Counted from the first letter of the stretch, positions 45,773 through 57,420 are shown. The stretch: 64,000 bases of DNA from a virus (IMGVR_UViG_3300021426_000096); one strand, 5' to 3'. Notes: generated from the letters alone by a model not told the origin. A program made the numbers and translations.

Positions 45773-48700
45773 TTAGTTGTCAGCAAGTCGGACTGTCCAA
45801 TTAACAGGAATACCATTCTCATTAGTTGTCCAACCAGACATACCCGATTTCTTTACAAATGTACCAACAGAAGCAACTCCAGACACCCAACTAGTAGTAC
45901 AGGCGCCTGCAGATACACTTGTTGCAAGACATTTGATGTAATTAAGACTTCTACAATTTTGGAACATATATCTATAACAATATGTTACTAAAGTAGAAGC
46001 AAGGAGATCAGGCGCTGTAGTCAATGTAGTACAACCTTTAAACATACTATAATAACATGCATTAACCAATGTAGTTGCCGGAAGTGCAGGTGCCGTAGTC
46101 AATGCAGTACAACCTTCAAACATGCTACAATAACAGTATTGTTTGAGTGATTTTGCTGGGAGTTCTGGCGCTGTAGTCAATGCAGTACAGCCAGAGAACA
46201 TATAATAATAGCAAAAATCTGTCATAGAGGTTGCTGGAAGAGTTGGTGCTGTAGTCAATGCAGTACAGCCAGAGAACATATATGCATAACAATATTTAGC
46301 TAATGTAGTTACAGAGAGAGTTGGTGCAGTGGTTAAACTAGTACAATTTTGGAACATACAATAATAAGCCTGATATCCAACACTACTTGGCATTATTAAA
46401 TTCTTCGCAGATACCACAGGAGTTCCCTTAAACAAATAAGGTTGAGATTCATTGGTACTGCGATATATTGAAGATAAATTACCACCTACTTCAAAACTGG
46501 CAGTTGTTCCTTGGAATGAACTATATAAATCTACATTGTTATCATATATACCCGCTCCAAACTTGAACTGCACAATGTCTCCAGCAACAACACTGATGGT
46601 GGTTCCATTGTCAGAAGAAACAATATTTGTCCAGGTTCCACCATTTTTAGAATATTTCAATGTTTTTATGCCACCAGAATTATATGGATCTTCTGAAGTA
46701 TTTATACAGTAATACTTCCAAGAGATATTACCATCACTTGTTATCTCAAATGTGAGAGGTTCATTAGAATAATCAACTTCAGCAGTCCATCCAGTTGGGA
46801 TACCACTTGTACCAGTAGTCCATGAGGAACTCAAAACTTTTACAAATGTACCCGTTGCTGCAACTCCATCTACCCAATCTGTTAATCCTGAACTGTAGCT
46901 GAGGTCCGTAGCTGAACACTTAATATAATTCAAATTACTGCATCCCTTGAACATATAAGAATAACAATTACTTGCTAATACAGCAGCAGGAAGTACTGGA
47001 GCTGTTGTTAATCCGGTACAACCATAGAACATGTTACAATAACAGTATTGTTTGAGTGATTTTGCTGGGAGTTCTGGCGCTGTTGTTAATCCGGTGCATC
47101 CGTAGAACATACTTCTATAGCATGCCATAAATAAATTAGTAGCTGGGAGTTCTGGAGCTGTTGTTAACGATGTACAACCTTTAAACATACAATCATAACA
47201 GTATTGATTAAGTGTAGTAGCAGGAAGTTTTGGTGCTTTAGTTAAATTAGTACAACCTTCAAACATATTTTCATAACAACCCCATTTTAGTGATGTTGAT
47301 GGAAGAATAAGATGCTCCGCTGATATTAATCCATCACAATCAACAAACAAACATGCATATTCCAAATTTGATGCATCGGCGGACATAAAATCATCCCCAG
47401 CAGTTAACGACATTATGTTTCCATAAACATCTACTTGGATAGATGACGATTTTATGTAAAAATAATTATAATATGATGTGTTACCACCAACATAATTACC
47501 TTTAACTCTTACTTTATCACCGGTAAGAACATCAATAGAGCCAGCAGCATATTTATTTGGGGTTATTTTCTGCCATTCGCCATTATTTACAGAACAATAT
47601 ATTGGATAAGCAGTTGCACCATTATCATTAATTTTCCATGTGATTCTTCCACCGGATTTAACATCAAATGTAAGATACTGCTGTGTATACTCATATTCAG
47701 TTTCACTATAAACATTCCAGCCTGAAGGAATACCACTTGCCCCAGTTGTCCACGAATCTATATTGTCTGCTTTAACAAATGTGCCTGTTTCTGCTACTCC
47801 ATATACCCATTTACCTGTGCAACTATCAGCAGATATATCTATTGCAAGACATTTGATATAATTAAGGTTAGTACAACCATTGAACATATAATAATAACAA
47901 TATTTTGTCAATGTAGTAGCAGGGAGTTCAGGTGCTGTTGTTAGACTTGTACAATTAGAGAACATATATCCATAACAATAACCTACCAATGTAGTAGCCG
48001 GAAGCTCAGGTGCTGTGGTTAGACTTGTACAATTAGAGAACATATAAAAATAACAACATGTTGCTAATGTAGTAGCAGGAAGAACTGGTGCTGTAGTTAG
48101 ACTAGTACAACCATAGAACATATATTCATAACAATATTTTGTCAATGTAGTAGCAGGAAGAACTGGTGCTGTAGTTAGACTAGTACAACCATAGAACATA
48201 TATTCATAACAATAGTCTGCCAATGTAGTAGCTGAAAGCTCAGGTGCTGTTGTTAGACTTGTACAACCAAAGAACATACTGGAATAACAATAGTCTGCCA
48301 ATGTAGTAGCAGGGAGTTCAGGTGCTGTGGTTAGACTAGTACAGCCATCAAACATAGACCGATAACAATAATCAACTAATGTAGTAGCAGGGAGTTCAGG
48401 TGCTGTGGTTAGACTTGTACAACCAAAGAACATACCGGAATAACAATAACTCACCAATGTAGTAGCAGGGAGTTCAGGTGCTGTGGTTAGACTAGTACAA
48501 CCATTGAACATACCCAAATAACACCCAGTTGCTAATATAGTAGCAGGGAGCGTAGGTGCTGTTGTTAGACTAGTACAACCATTGAACATATACCGATAAC
48601 AATAGTCTGCCAATGTAGTAGCAGGGAGAATAAGGTTTTCTGCTGATAATAATCCAGTACAATTATAGAATAAATATGCAAACGTATAAGATGATGATAA

Positions 48701-56900: not shown

Positions 56901-57420
56901 CATTATATGTTGCAGTACCCTCAACAAATCCAGAATAGTTATTCTTGTTTCCAACACAATATGCACTGTTTGTACCCTTAATCATAACTGTGTCACCAGC
57001 GGATACATTAAATGAAACACCAGATGAATTTGATGTTATACTTGTCCAAGAACCATTATTGATACTGTAAGATATGGTCTTTGTTGCACCAGAACCATTT
57101 GACTTCCATATAATTGTACCCGGGGTGAGGACTTCAAATGTAAGATAATCATTAGTATAATCATGATATTCTTCACTCTCACTCTCACCAGTATCAATAC
57201 CACAAGGTATACCATTGATATAGTTATACAACTCTGATGGTGTAAATAATCTCCACTGACCATTTACAACCATCAAAATTTTTCCATTGTCTTCCGCTGA
57301 TACTGTTGGCATATATCGTGATTCATCAGGAATACTCTGACCATTCACTGTGACTGCATCAAAAGGATATAATTCTTCACCTATCTTAATATGAGAAATT
57401 GACTCAATGTCTATTGGCAT
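50959..57420 (-). CDS. giant modular protein: fibre-anchor N-domain + beta-sandwich / BspA-type LRR / Ig-like (CHB_HEX_C-like) modules + C-terminal FISUMP domain (candidate tail fibre / receptor-binding protein)
   Basis: 2153 codons; N-terminus ESISHIKIG..DAVTVNGQSIPDES..PTVSAEDNGKILMVVNGQW homologous to the 9791 ORF; C-terminus GWRLPTKDEWDYIVG...GFSLGG.DYWSS; SESESE linkers. Confidence 0.8.
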   Translation of the reverse strand: MPIDIESISHIKIGEELYPFDAVTVNGQSIPDESRYMPTVSAEDNGKILMVVNGQWRLFTPSELYNYINGIPCGIDTGESESEEYHDYTNDYLTFEVLTPGTIIWKSNGSGATKTISYSINNGSWTSITSNSSGVSFNVSAGDTVMIKGTNSAYCVGNKNNYSGFVEGTATYNVSGNIMSLIYGDNFVGQTSLSTGLEFTQLFKTAPVVSAGNLILPATTLSNECYRGMFSKCSTLTVAPELPATTLAEYCYWYMFEECAITKAPFLPATTVPAYGYGFMFTGCSNLNEITCLATDISATDCTNGWVTSVASSGTFYKDENMEDWTIGINGIPTNWVTIDYGTPVESESESESETDYINEYLTFDVKSSGNITWTASDSDYTRTISYSKNDGAWTDVTSSTSGETISVTAGDKVRFKGSNSAYGYHVSSTLKNNTFGGTATFDVYGNIMSLVGGDDFVNVAQIEAAAFVYLFKNCIGVLSAANLKLPITTLATYCYQSMFNGCTNLTAAPELPAHTLAGACYNGMFLGCTSLTTAPELFAVTLAQACYYAMFQGCTSLTTAPSSLPATTLVKQCYQSMFQNCTSLTTIPTLSGNVLKESCYQSMFQGCTSLTTIYSTLTVTLLAKNCYNSMFKGCTHITNVPQLNNTLLYEGCYREMFSGCTSLTTAPELPATTLANHCYNSMFLGCTSLTIAPSINSTTLPAFSCSCMFYGCTSLTTAPTLTATTVQTRSCESMFNGCTSLTSVSSLPATTLGEYCYASMFEGCTNLVTVPSTLPATTLVDSCYYQMFKGCTGITTSPTLPATTLVERCYYGMFQGCTSLTSAPELPATTLANYCYIIMFQGCTSLTTAPELPATTLASSCYQGMFNGCTNLNYIKCLATNDNLYAGFASGWVYGVAETGTFVKDASATSWPTGENGIPTGWIVDDEGGESESESESESETPTPIDQRNEYLTFNITSAGNIATSVGNNESYEYQLNDGAWTSVTSTISVSPGDVVKFRGACQKYDHIKFEDSTCAFTLSGNVMSIYSSSTFTINTKLSYASCFSDLFKGCTGLTSVENLVLPATTLSNYCYASMFEGCTSLTTSPVLPAQTLMEGSYGNMFKYCSSLNYIKCLATDISARYCVDSWVNGVAASGTFVKDPSMNDWTINSISGIPVGWTVVDNGDEGESEEPIITVSDPVISYSNNTITISCITDGATIYYKLGENGEYQTYSSPVSLNESTTVYAYASLSGTNSTVVSENCVYVEPYEPGDSDYGDSDSESDVPVDPSHDYSQDYLTFNITTSGNIATTVGSNTSYQYRKNGGEWTSVTSTISVTAGDVVEFKGTLQRYEHIKFESSTCGFTVSGNVMSIYNPTTFTELTTMDYSNCFENLFKGCTGLTSAENLILPATTLTNYCYNSMFEGCTSLTTPPVLPASTLSEGAYGSMFKYCSSLNYIKCLATDISARYCVDSWVQYVAASGTFVKADSMNDWTIDSISGIPVGWTLINASDESGQDEGDSDSESEEPVITVSAPELSYSNNTVTITCDTTGATIYYKLGESGTYQEYTTPVVLSADTTVYAYASLNDVDSEVVSEEFVHDYSLDYLTFDVLTGGNILWKSIGSGQEKTISYSINDGEWTSITATPAGTAIPVSAGDVVRFKGTNSTYAKDKSNYSGFDGGTATYNVEGNMMSLIYGDNFVGNNTLSGTYNFCSIFKQSKAVSAENMILPATTLTTYCYRAMFSLAPNLITPPALPATTLAQGCYWYMFEKCPMSTAPDLLASTLVQECYGNMFTGCSNLNYIKCLATTKSATNCLQNWVKDVAATGTFVKDANTTWSTGVNGIPTGWVVYDGEIVEDPVINFNGENKIEISCETSGTTIYYRLGTSGSYTEYTGLIIITEDVTIYAYAEKDGQQSQTVSQECVYSEHIYKFGDLVFASGPLYYGNDGYEIKDSWNYSSYGTVYGKNVGSTFFNYIEMGDLFKKSGFSSSDGPILNTLDPLDGWRLPTKDEWDYIVGSTRPGSTVNGASGKHYAFINFDHDNNQNTGSISGLLIFPDNETITGATLSYFDSISTNVITLDQFNNYLSQGCVFLHADGIYQTNTGFSLGGLDYWSSSDYSESTVPAYALTKQSEIGTSLYSKEACYLPVYLVKDTTYGEETPFEGATKSLNTWTI

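What the first reader, a model, noticed from the sequence alone, without database searches (positions are those of the whole stretch)
45773..57420. Two giant tandem minus-strand genes encoding modular LRR / Ig-like / glycosidase proteins
ORFs of 2153 and ~1717 codons overlap by 13 nt and are the only long minus-strand genes in the window. Together they cover 18% of it. Each is a string of modules: ~100-aa beta-sandwich units (YLTF[DN][IV].S.GNI.WK...ISYS.NDG.WT..TS....I.V..GD.V.FKG), arrays of 5-9 copies of a 26-aa unit MF.GCTSLTTAPELPATTL..YCY. (a BspA-type LRR variant), cap units NYIKCLAT..SA..C..WV.GVA..GTFVK....W....GIP.GW, Ig-like P.ITVS.P..SYSNNT.TI.C.T.GATIYYKLGE.G.Y units and acidic SESESE linkers. 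No canonical repeat promoter precedes them, so they may be late genes driven by the phage sigma factor. Size, domain content and the shared anchor domain point to receptor-binding or host-glycan-targeting fibres of an unusual architecture.
Basis: partly seen in the sequence, partly recalled or inferred. Interest (0 to 1): 0.8.

Follow-up and report, generated by a model that had tools for sequence, protein, structure and literature searches.

The report
Giant modular phage LRR-glycosidase protein pair
Two giant neighbouring genes in a large rumen or gut Bacteroidales phage encode bead-on-a-string proteins made of capped leucine-rich-repeat cassettes, Ig-like spacers, a lectin-like tip and a GH2 sugar-cleaving enzyme; related phages swap these cassettes in and out, so the pair is most likely a re-programmable adhesion or receptor-binding apparatus, though virion attachment is not shown.

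Summary
p1 (50959-57420, minus strand, 2153 aa) and p2 (45773-50926, minus strand, 1717 aa from the conserved ATG) are real.

Architecture:
- p1 = N-anchor, five capped LRR cassettes, three Ig-like domains and a C-terminal FISUMP/Lcl-like lectin-fold domain.
- p2 = an apparently catalytically intact GH2 enzyme plus three cassettes.

Pfam/NCBIfam support LRR_5, the PARCEL repeat, CHB_HEX_C_1/Fn3_assoc and GH2. FISUMP is supported only through homologues and fold.

One cassette (beta-sandwich head + 26-aa LRR units + cap) folds as a single rigid unit (pLDDT 96.5). It has no close solved structure and no match in 50,697 deposited phage genomes. It is nevertheless common in Bacteroidales surface proteins that carry signal peptides.

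Syntenic loci in related phages carry the same island with different cassette loads, including one single fused gene. Recombination junctions lie in the linker-coding and LRR-coding repeats.

The context is phage-like, with Bacteroidota-type promoters. The fibre or receptor-binding role is plausible: there is a fibre-associated N-terminal motif and no signal peptide. It remains unproven, because no tail genes are adjacent and no tail-fibre family matches.

Verdict: a new variant of known kinds, of moderate to high interest.

The parts
57451..57480 (-). Conserved upstream element ATAACAAAA-N(2-14)-CATAAATAAC, a candidate dedicated promoter or regulatory site of the p1-p2 operon
   Evidence: It occurs once per locus, 30-60 nt upstream of every p1 orthologue, and nowhere else in those loci. 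It differs from the + strand Bacteroidota-type promoter motif.
50959..57420 (-). p1, 2153 aa: N - cas1 - cas2 - cas3 - Ig - cas4 - Ig - cas5 - Ig - Z
   Evidence: The identical protein is on ENA contigs (P0001).
57190..57420 (-). p1 N-terminal domain (res 1-77). It includes one copy of the motif LPxVTxxDNGKxLxVVNGxW.
   Evidence: The exhaustive search gave 635 hits. The motif is tandemly repeated in phage proteins, including P0157, which has tail-fibre family hits. The full N domain heads variable cassette proteins. dN = 0 against L007.
56395..57156 (-). p1 cassette 1 (res 89-342; head + about 3 LRR units + cap). It is absent from the close relative L007.
   Evidence: The indel junction lies inside the ESESE linker-coding repeat.
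54637..56349 (-). p1 cassette 2 (res 358-928; head + about 16 LRR units + cap)
   Evidence: LRR_5 2.4e-13 and TIGR02167 3.1e-20. Its distal units and cap are only 42-75% identical to L007, against a 98-100% background.
53929..54576 (-). p1 cassette 3 (res 949-1164)
53671..53928 (-). Ig-like domain 1 (res 1165-1250)
   Evidence: CHB_HEX_C_1 1.8e-5 and Fn3_assoc 1.1e-4 on the isolated fragment
52954..53601 (-). p1 cassette 4 (res 1274-1489)
52678..52953 (-). Ig-like domain 2 (res 1490-1581)
   Evidence: Fn3_assoc 7e-9; best stretch 1523-1577
51919..52677 (-). p1 cassette 5 (res 1582-1834), the cassette that was modelled
   Evidence: AF2 pLDDT 96.5, pTM 0.91: nine-strand beta-sandwich, then solenoid, then cap. 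No significant Foldseek match in the PDB.
51697..51918 (-). Ig-like domain 3 (res 1835-1908)
   Evidence: CHB_HEX_C_1 best stretch 1842-1898
50962..51696 (-). [not shown]
45773..50926 (-). p2, 1717 aa from the ATG: GH2 - cas1 - cas2 - cas3
49022..50926 (-). p2 GH2 enzyme module (sugar-binding, Ig-like and TIM-barrel domains)
   Evidence: Pfam hits. NF050095 1.2e-81. PDB 6mvf 2.7e-67, with the WGLGNE, SEYGC and NNKGL motifs aligned. dN 0.007 against L007.
47699..49015 (-). p2 cassette 1 (about 11 LRR units). The left breakpoint of the 3' replacement lies inside its array, near 48194.
46766..47686 (-). p2 cassette 2 (about 6 LRR units)
45779..46768 (-). p2 cassette 3 (about 6 LRR units)
   Evidence: LRR_5 1.5e-7
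45727..45771 (-). Untranslated orphan cap end MNGIPSGWTVVDNT*. It matches the real C-terminus of the L007 orthologue P0022 and is a scar of cassette replacement.
45678..45711 (.). Bidirectional intrinsic terminator hairpin that closes the p1-p2 operon
   Evidence: dG -20.5 kcal/mol, z -7.3, flanked by an A-tract and a U-tract

Best explanation
p1 and p2 form a two-gene operon of a large Bacteroidales-infecting phage. They most likely encode one cooperative, modular adhesion and glycan-processing apparatus displayed on the virion as a long flexible fibre or whisker.

Proposed working, step by step (all inferred except where marked shown):
- p1 is held to the particle by its conserved 77-aa N-terminal domain.
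- p1 then presents a string of independently folded, capped 26-residue LRR cassettes. Each has a beta-sandwich head, and its variable residues form a stripe at repeat positions 3, 13, 20-22 and 25-26 (shown).
- The cassettes are spaced by Ig-like domains and acidic linkers.
- The string ends in a C-type-lectin-like FISUMP/Lcl-type tip.
- p2 contributes a GH2 exo-glycosidase that appears active and carries the uronate-type N-x-K motif, plus further cassettes. It would trim terminal sugars of the host capsule or of surrounding glycans.

Specificity is re-programmed by recombination that inserts, deletes or swaps whole cassettes or sub-arrays. The linker-coding and LRR-coding repeats serve as crossover sites.

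Shown: domain content, cassette fold, phage-like context, cassette turnover and its junctions, and the p1-GH2 fusion in a syntenic relative.
Inferred: virion attachment, ligand identity, enzyme substrate and physical p1-p2 association.
For: Domains:
- Family matches support GH2, LRR_5, the PARCEL repeat and the Ig-like domains.
- The GH2 catalytic motifs align with the gut glucuronidase 6mvf.
- The cassette folds as one rigid unit, pLDDT 96.5.
- Lcl-CTD is a trimeric, carbohydrate-binding, C-type-lectin-like tip (PMC11162425).

Links to phage fibres:
- The N-domain motif recurs in phage proteins, including one with tail-fibre PHROGs, Peptidase_S74 and Phage_tail_C.
- 146 of 149 motif proteins lack a hydrophobic N-terminus.
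- p1 and p2 lack signal peptides, whereas bacterial homologues have them directly before the NYLTF head.
- A fibre-like 888-aa gene lies on the same strand about 6 kb away.

Conservation and coupling:
- The island sits in the same place next to Acb3/SmpB in related genomes. Protein sizes are 2153+1717, 1884+2136, 1688+1026 and 1237+668 aa.
- One relative has a single fused gene of 1667 aa, N...Z-GH2.
- P0150 is a further N...GH2 fusion.

Turnover:
- Recombination junctions lie in the linker repeat, inside an LRR array, and at the cap end, where an orphan remnant is left.
- Divergence is mosaic. dN is 0.054 in the cassettes, 0-0.007 in the anchor and GH2, and 0.006-0.027 in flanking genes.
Against: - No capsid, portal, terminase, tail or baseplate genes are visible within reach of the locus.
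- The flanks are small early or accessory genes, an anti-CBASS gene, SmpB and an integrase.
- No tail-fibre PHROG or Pfam family hits p1 or p2. The only hit is phrog_9915, of unknown function.
- LRR solenoids are usually monomeric, whereas classical fibres are trimers.
- GH2 enzymes are exo-acting, unlike typical phage depolymerases (general knowledge).
- The link between the N-terminal motif and tail fibres rests on very few annotated proteins: one of the ten scanned, P0157, has tail-fibre family hits, and P0137 shares a family of unknown function with it and has fibre-like sequence features.
- The motif has no solved structure.
Confidence: 0.5

Rival explanations
1. The proteins are not part of the virion. 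They are made in the infected cell and released at lysis, or act inside the cell, to bind and trim capsule, EPS or dietary glycans. This would aid progeny escape or reshape host metabolism. It is the moron or AMG-like reading.
For: - The locus lies in an accessory region, flanked by Acb3, SmpB and an integrase rather than tail genes.
- GH2 is listed among rumen-virome AMGs (10.1101/2023.03.20.532305).
- GH2 is exo-acting.
- There are no tail-fibre family hits.
Against: - An AMG role does not explain the conserved N-terminal domain with a phage-fibre-associated motif.
- It does not explain up to eight binding cassettes, the lectin-like tip, or RBP-style mosaic turnover.
- A cytoplasmic 2153-aa adhesin-like protein has no evident target.
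Confidence: 0.25
2. The proteins are on the virion, but they bind plant fibre, mucus or non-host surfaces in the rumen (adherence that raises encounter rate, as with Hoc/BAM) rather than the host receptor.
For: - Ig-like CHB_HEX_C_1/Fn3_assoc domains, a CBM-like jelly-roll head (weak Foldseek hits to CE2, CBM35 and CBM6) and a lectin-like tip resemble carbohydrate-active-enzyme accessory modules.
- The cassettes are shared with Bacteroidales surface proteins of fibre-degrading habitats.
Against: - Rapid cassette swapping between 97-98% identical genomes is more typical of host-range determinants.
- No ligand data of any kind exist.
Confidence: 0.15
3. These are bacterial BspA-like adhesin genes on a chromosome or on a non-viral mobile element, not phage genes.
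For: - Most homologues are in Bacteroidales, Paludibacteraceae or Prevotella MAGs.
- An integrase lies nearby.
- No hallmark virion gene was seen.
Against: - There is no signal peptide and no T9SS-type C-terminus, unlike the bacterial homologues.
- The surrounding roughly 90 kb consists of dense small genes with PHROG-only families, a phage-type sigma factor, Acb3, Thg1 and RNA ligases.
- Relatives are classed as viral in IMG/VR.
- The neighbouring 888-aa protein shares a module with proteins carrying Phage_fiber_2, Peptidase_S74 or head-fibre domains.
Confidence: 0.06
4. The proteins are intracellular decoys or anti-defence factors, an idea suggested by the adjacent anti-CBASS gene.
For: Only the adjacency to the Acb3 homologue.
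Against: - The genes are on the opposite strand, with their own upstream element and terminator.
- The domain set (glycosidase, lectin-like, Ig-like) is extracellular in character.
Confidence: 0.03

Closest known systems
BspA-type (LRR_5, PF13306) and PARCEL (TIGR02167/DUF285) repeat surface proteins of Bacteroidales, Treponema and Mollicutes
   Same: - The LRR arrays pass both curated cutoffs.
- The identical head-LRR-cap cassette, strung 1-10 times, occurs in hundreds of Bacteroidales proteins.
- Variable-number tandem repeats and mobility match the PARCEL description (PMC2996958).
   Different: - p1 and p2 have no signal peptide, lipobox or T9SS domain.
- They are headed by a phage-type N domain or by GH2.
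- They lie in a phage genome.
- The repeat period is 26 aa rather than the roughly 23 aa typical of TpLRR (my knowledge).
Giant PARCEL/BspA-like ORFs of jumbo phages, for example Vibrio phage vB_VhaM_pir03 ORF200 and ORF287
   Same: Very large phage ORFs with DUF285/PARCEL or BspA-type repeats and no assigned function (PMC7765460).
   Different: - There is no detectable similarity to any deposited phage at tblastn level.
- The cassettes here are capped, have beta-sandwich heads, and are combined with Ig-like, lectin-like and GH2 modules.
- Cassette turnover is documented here.
Modular, mosaic phage receptor-binding fibres with a conserved N-terminal anchor and exchangeable distal modules
   Same: - Conserved N-terminus and hypervariable distal parts.
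- Recombinational mosaicism between near-identical genomes.
- Enzymatic plus binding modules.
- A lectin-fold tip, as in Mtd.
   Different: - The binding units are LRR solenoids, not trimeric beta-helices or knobs.
- The enzyme is an exo-acting GH2.
- The genes are not next to tail genes.
- Virion location is unproven.
Gut bacterial GH2 beta-glucuronidases (6mvf, 7kgz, 6mvg clade)
   Same: The three-domain GH2 core aligns over about 600 residues, with both catalytic Glu motifs and N-x-K conserved.
   Different: - It scores far below the equivalog cutoffs: 275 bits against 950 for NF050095.
- It is fused C-terminally to LRR cassettes.
- It is encoded by a phage and has no signal peptide.
Legionella Lcl C-terminal domain / DUF1566 and the FISUMP family
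   Same: - The GWRLPT..EW and VRLVK motifs are shared.
- It sits at the C-terminus of an elongated adhesin (PMC11162425).
   Different: - The direct HMM scores are below cutoff.
- The domain is larger, about 245 aa.
- Oligomeric state and ligand are unknown.

Membership tests
LRR_5 (PF13306, BspA-type LRR) | Score above the Pfam gathering threshold | tested here: met
   p2 scores 81.4 bits against 27.7 (E 6.7e-23). p1 cassette 2 scores 50.5 bits and p2 cassette 3 scores 31.8 bits. Whole p1 did not list it at E<0.01, and the short-array cassette 5 gave no hit.
PARCEL repeat (TIGR02167 / DUF285) | Tandem 25-26-residue amphipathic repeat scoring above the NCBIfam cutoff | tested here: met
   43.6, 36.5 and 71.5 bits against a cutoff of 30. 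The period is 26 aa / 78 nt. PF03382 hits homologues but not p1 or p2 themselves.
PARCEL repeat (TIGR02167 / DUF285) | Dyad symmetry (palindromic) coding DNA, as described in PMC2996958 | not tested
   No inverted-repeat analysis of the arrays was run.
Bacterial BspA-like cell-surface protein | N-terminal signal peptide or lipobox, and in Bacteroidota a T9SS C-terminal domain, for export | tested here: not met
   Neither p1 nor p2 has a hydrophobic N-terminus. 41 of 120 homologues and the genome-encoded versions do. The test was heuristic, not SignalP.
Glycoside hydrolase family 2 | Sugar-binding N domain + Ig-like domain + TIM barrel, above the Pfam cutoffs | tested here: met
   PF02837 29.3 bits against 28; PF00703 29.9 against 23; PF02836 95.5 against 21.
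Glycoside hydrolase family 2 | Catalytic acid/base Glu (W-G-x-x-N-E) and nucleophile Glu (E-Y-G) | tested here: met
   WGLGNEF and SEYGCGG align with FWGISNEI and SEYGCEG of 6mvf. Assigning these motifs as catalytic rests on my knowledge of GH2.
GH2 beta-glucuronidase subgroup | N-x-K carboxylate-binding motif and an equivalog-level score | tested here: inconclusive
   NNKGL is conserved and aligned. The best equivalog, NF050095, scores 275 bits against a cutoff of 950. The substrate cannot be assigned.
CHB_HEX_C_1 / Fn3_assoc Ig-like domains | Score above the Pfam gathering threshold | tested here: met
   33.5 bits against 22, and 36.1 bits against 23, with three stretches.
FISUMP (TIGR02145 / PF09603 Fib_succ_major) | Score above the curated cutoff | tested here: not met
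   15.2 bits against 41.65; 10.3 bits against 33.9.
FISUMP (TIGR02145 / PF09603 Fib_succ_major) | Homology through intermediate sequences and a shared fold | tested here: inconclusive
   [not shown]
Phage tail fibre / receptor-binding protein | Match to a tail-fibre protein family | tested here: not met
   Only phrog_9915 (unknown function) and weak hits.
Phage tail fibre / receptor-binding protein | N-terminal anchor homologous to known fibre proteins | tested here: inconclusive
   The DNGK motif is shared with 635 proteins, among them P0157 (phrog_1980/8443, Peptidase_S74, Phage_tail_C). There is no match in deposited phages or the PDB.
Phage tail fibre / receptor-binding protein | Location in the tail/baseplate gene module | tested here: not met
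   The flanks are small accessory genes. A fibre-like 888-aa gene lies about 6 kb away.
Phage tail fibre / receptor-binding protein | Presence in the virion; binding to the host receptor | not testable with these tools
   Requires proteomics, cryo-EM or adsorption assays.
DGR variable protein (CLec fold, Mtd/TvpA-like) | A template repeat matching the variable region, and hypervariability of the CLec domain | tested here: not met
   [not shown]

The most novel reading that the evidence does not exclude
A lineage of large Bacteroidales phages has taken over its hosts' cell-surface adhesin building block, the capped 26-residue LRR cassette with a beta-sandwich head. It uses this block as a plug-and-play receptor-binding bead on a two-protein fibre that also carries an exo-uronidase and a lectin-like tip. 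Host range or adhesion specificity would then be rewritten by whole-cassette exchange at linker and repeat sequences. That would be an LRR-based modular phage recognition system, distinct from trimeric fibres, tailspikes and DGR-diversified lectins.
Probability: 0.35. Interest if true: 0.75.

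Novelty: new variant of a known kind. Interest (0 to 1): 0.55.

Why it matters
- If these proteins are virion-borne, they would be a receptor-recognition design not yet described for phages: multivalent LRR beads instead of trimeric fibres, coupled to an exo-glycosidase.
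- The mechanism of specificity change, cassette shuffling, can be read directly from genome comparison. That would help predict host range for abundant, uncultured rumen and gut Bacteroidales phages.
- The cassette is a compact, confidently folding binding scaffold with no solved structure. It is shared by more than 1,600 bacterial and phage proteins, so one structure and one ligand would annotate a large family.
- If the proteins are not virion-borne, this is still a clear case of a phage carrying and rapidly remodelling host-type adhesin and CAZyme modules.

Tried and rejected
- Megablast of the locus and of 22 kb of the flank against 50,697 phage records gave no match.
- tblastn of p2 against phages matched only the GH2 part, at no more than 30% identity, mostly in unannotated faecal contigs.
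- tblastn of a cassette and of the N domain against phages gave no match. A run of DNGK repeats matched only one tape-measure gene weakly.
- Sequence searches of the PDB with the cassette, the Z domain, the DNGK repeats, the L001 N-terminal region and the 662-aa and 888-aa neighbours found nothing significant.
- Foldseek against the PDB for both models gave no hit at E<=0.001. The jelly-roll/CBM resemblance of the head is therefore only suggestive.
- The consensus promoter/terminator scan was no better than shuffles, and it missed the real hairpin.
- Attempts to walk to virion genes failed. The 10-kb flanks on both sides of the window, and the stretch beyond the 888-aa gene, show only small or accessory genes. 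One look-up failed because the start codon was wrong.
- The 888-aa protein has no IMG/VR relatives by this method.
- DGR-type diversification of the lectin-fold tip was rejected.
- The 115-aa minus-strand ORF after p2 was rejected as a gene.
- The five 160-170-aa ORFs at 41.7-45.2 kb are not detectable paralogues.
- Genome size stays unresolved. Contigs of 96.0, 96.3 and 104.5 kb would fit a genome of about 96 kb, but relatives of neighbouring genes sit on 237-245 kb IMG/VR contigs.

Full report
**1. The observation**

- The window has a 2153-codon ORF at 50959-57420 and a 1732-codon ORF at 45773-50971, both on the minus strand.
- They cover 18.2% of the window. No other minus-strand ORF exceeds 261 aa, while nearly all other genes are small and on the + strand.
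- The second ORF's TTG start is probably an artefact. The public gene call and all GH2-led homologues start at the ATG at 50926, reading MSNIT(V/L)PYS. That gives 1717 aa and a 32-nt AT-rich spacer instead of a 13-nt overlap.
- A perfect hairpin with flanking A- and U-tracts (45678-45711, dG -20.5 kcal/mol, z -7.3) ends the operon.
- The 115-aa ORF predicted over that hairpin is low-complexity and spurious.

**2. Anatomy**

Regular-expression mapping and HMMs built from the window's own copies give these architectures:
- p1 = N(1-77) - [H-LRR3-C] - [H-LRR16-C] - [H-LRR3-C] - Ig - [H-LRR3-C] - Ig - [H-LRR3/4-C] - Ig - Z(1909-2153)
- p2 = GH2(16-650) - [H-LRR11-C] - [H-LRR6-C] - [H-LRR6-C]

Here H is a head of about 100 aa, C is a 56-aa cap, and acidic SE/SD linkers join some units.

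The 26-aa unit:
- It has an invariant scaffold, MF.GCTSLTTAP.LPATTL...CY.
- Its hypervariable positions are 3, 13, 20-22 and 25-26, with 2.3-3.6 bits of entropy.
- The 78-nt period is visible in the DNA at 60-84% identity.

**3. Domain tests**

- p2's N-terminal third is a full GH2, with Glyco_hydro_2_N, the middle domain and the TIM barrel all above cutoff.
- The best NCBIfam model is a beta-glucuronidase, at 1.2e-81 but far below the equivalog cutoff.
- The best solved relatives are gut-bacterial beta-glucuronidases (6mvf, 2.7e-67). The alignment keeps WGLGNE, SEYGC and NNKGL. From my knowledge of GH2/GUS enzymes, these are the acid/base Glu, the nucleophile Glu and the uronate-binding N-x-K motif.
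- LRR_5 and the PARCEL repeat model both pass their cutoffs.
- The three Ig-like units pass CHB_HEX_C_1 and Fn3_assoc.
- The head, the cap and the N domain match no Pfam or NCBIfam family.
- The Z domain fails FISUMP and Lcl_C directly.
- Z's homologues are mostly stand-alone proteins of about 235 aa. Seven of 14 hit Fib_succ_major, best E 3.2e-9, and five hit Lcl_C.

**4. Structure**

- With a 24-sequence alignment, cassette 5 of p1 is predicted as one rigid unit (pLDDT 96.5, pTM 0.91). It consists of a nine-strand beta-sandwich, a helix, the solenoid and a three-strand cap.
- Foldseek finds no significant PDB match. Weak local hits are to jelly-roll carbohydrate-binding modules and to Bacteroides and Eubacterium LRR_5 structures.
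- The Z model is confident over residues 70-300 of the modelled fragment.
- Lcl-CTD is a trimeric, C-type-lectin-like, glycosaminoglycan-binding tip of an elongated adhesin (PMC11162425).

**5. Context and host**

Identified neighbours:
- a sigma-70-family factor (12275-13165)
- Thg1
- Dam
- an SPFH protein
- RNA ligases
- an Acb3 anti-CBASS homologue (57509-58330), directly divergent from p1
- SmpB
- a tyrosine integrase
- many PHROG-only families

Other context:
- The window is part of a 96-kb ENA metagenome scaffold. From the locus coordinates I infer that it covers roughly contig positions 31078-95077.
- Eleven exact copies of TTGTATCTTTGTA, preceded by AAATTTGG, lie on the + strand. These match the Bacteroidota -7 (TAnnTTTG) and -33 (TTTG) promoter consensus known to me, which points to a Bacteroidota host.
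- None of these copies precedes p1. Instead, the element ATAACAAAA-N(2-14)-CATAAATA occurs once, 30-60 nt upstream of p1, in the window and in every orthologous locus, and nowhere else in them.
- Just beyond the window, on the same strand as p1, lies an 888-aa protein. Its N-terminal module is shared with proteins carrying Phage_fiber_2, Peptidase_S74, pectate-lyase, SGNH or head-fibre domains.
- No capsid, portal, terminase or tail genes could be reached.

**6. Relatives**

- A database search returned 1673 homologues.
- The H-LRR-C cassette is strung 1-10 times in giant proteins.
- About a third of the top 120 have a signal-peptide-like N-terminus directly followed by the NYLTF head. Named examples are from Paludibacteraceae, Bacteroidales and Prevotella MAGs.
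- Reference genomes from rumen and gut Bacteroidales, and from a Treponema MAG, encode signal-peptide or lipoprotein versions.
- Phage-type versions have no signal peptide. They start with the N domain, with GH2, or with other conserved N-termini.
- The cassette has no tblastn match in 50,697 deposited phage records.
- PARCEL/BspA-like giant ORFs have been noted, without a function, in a Vibrio jumbo phage (PMC7765460).

**7. The N domain**

- An exhaustive search found 635 proteins.
- Residues 33-62 form a short motif, LPxVTxxDNGKxLxVVNGxW. It is tandemly repeated up to 13 times in proteins that almost never have a hydrophobic N-terminus.
- Of the ten motif proteins scanned, one (P0157) has tail-fibre PHROGs, a Peptidase_S74 chaperone and a phage tail-tip domain. 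A second, P0137, has YadA-like repeats and a fibre-type C-terminus.
- The whole N domain heads proteins of very different cassette content: P0141, P0145, P0150, P0003, P0044 and P0112.

**8. Comparative test**

In syntenic loci next to Acb3/SmpB the island varies as follows:

| Locus | p1-type protein (aa) | GH2-type protein (aa) | Note |
|---|---|---|---|
| window | 2153 | 1717 | |
| L007 | 1884 | 2136 | flanks 97-98% identical to the window |
| L014 | 1688 | 1026 | |
| L012/L013 | 1237 | 668 | GH2 with no cassettes |

- P0150 is a further N-...-GH2 fusion. The fusions argue that p1 and p2 work together.
- Between the window and L007, cassette 1 of p1 is cleanly present or absent. The junction lies inside the shared GAGAGTGAGAGTGA (ESESE) linker repeat.
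- The distal half of cassette 2 is a 42-75% identical patch, while most other modules are 98-100% identical (range 90-100%).
- The 3' part of p2 (2.4 kb here, 3.6 kb in L007) is replaced. The left junction is inside an LRR array, near 48194, and the right junction is at the cap end. It leaves the ancestral C-terminus NGIPSGWTVVDNT* as an untranslated remnant at 45727-45771.
- dN is 0.054 in the p1 cassettes, 0 in the anchor, 0.007 in GH2 and 0.006-0.027 in flanking genes, at similar dS.
- The lectin-fold tip is not hypervariable and has no template repeat, so a DGR is excluded.

**9. Interpretation**

- The best-supported reading is a phage-encoded, two-protein modular adhesion and glycosidase apparatus, diversified by cassette shuffling and most likely displayed on the virion.
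- Domain content, phage context, coupling of the two genes and the shuffling mechanism are shown.
- Virion location, ligands, substrate and late expression are inferred.
- The main rival is a non-virion, lysis-released or AMG-like role. It is favoured by the accessory-region location and by the lack of any tail-fibre family match.

**10. Novelty**

- The parts are known families, and the cassette is common in bacteria.
- I found no published description of this assembly in the held literature. The assembly means capped LRR cassettes, Ig-like domains, a lectin-like tip and GH2, with a phage-type anchor, a conserved island and documented cassette exchange.
- I rate it a new variant of known kinds, with interest 0.55.

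Noticed in passing
window + strand: 3940, 4797, 15110, 25341, 30446, 31924, 33694, 35192, 35425, 36316, 39056: Eleven exact copies of TTGTATCTTTGTA, often preceded by AAA(A/T)AAATTTGG. No shuffle reached the observed count. The motif matches the Bacteroidota -7 TAnnTTTG / -33 TTTG promoter type, which implies a Bacteroidota host and host-sigma-driven + strand transcription units.
   Followed up: partly
window 57451-57480 (-); L007 9939-9967; L012/L013 9948-9968; L014 9954-9973; L023 9954-9975: A conserved element, ATAACAAAA-N(2-14)-CATAAATA, is found only upstream of p1 orthologues, once per locus. It is a candidate operon-specific promoter or operator. Any link to the phage sigma factor is untested.
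   Followed up: partly
window 57509-58330 (+): A homologue of the CBASS inhibitor Acb3 (PF25187, E 9.6e-35) is divergently transcribed from p1 and is conserved at this position in related loci.
   Followed up: no
window 62934-63392 (+) and 63444-64000 (+, cut by the window end): A phage-encoded SmpB (the tmRNA partner) is followed by a tyrosine integrase (phrog_1, E 1.7e-15 for the L007 copy). No tmRNA was found in the window by ARAGORN.
   Followed up: partly
window 1686-2492, 12275-13165, 36716-36790: A Thg1-like tRNA-His guanylyltransferase, a sigma-70-family factor (regions 2 and 4), and a single tRNA-Arg(CCT).
   Followed up: no
L007 115-2781 (just beyond the window's right end, same strand as p1): An 888-aa protein whose N-terminal roughly 100-aa module (…TATKVVAASNYVLTDGGSIKIKFTYANSVASPTLNINSTGAK…) is shared with proteins carrying Phage_fiber_2, Peptidase_S74, pectate-lyase, SGNH or head-fibre domains. 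It looks like a second fibre-like gene in the same orientation.
   Followed up: partly
window 50962-51021 (-), p1 residues about 2134-2153: A conserved C-terminal tail, YG(E/D)E(T/S)P(F/L)EGA(T/N)K(S/D)(L/I)N.W.I, follows the lectin-like domain in p1 orthologues and in some stand-alone Z proteins. It is predicted to be disordered (pLDDT 31-39) and may be a docking peptide.
   Followed up: no
L022 9986-17305 and 17309-18325: In another phage-like contig, a six-cassette protein with a different conserved N-terminus (MEHLHLFETQ…NYKEPW) is followed by a separate gene encoding a Z-type domain. The same modules are thus split over adjacent genes.
   Followed up: no
window 36000-40000: This stretch has higher GC (0.43-0.47) and a negative GC skew, unlike the rest of the + strand block. 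Overlapping candidate ORFs lie on both strands (39044-39829 minus, 39113-39796 plus), so the coding strand is unclear.
   Followed up: no
p1 residues 69-76 compared with the cap ends: The N domain ends with NGIPCG. This mimics the NGIP.GW ending of every cap, just before an acidic linker, so the boundary motif may itself be a recombination or structural junction.
   Followed up: no
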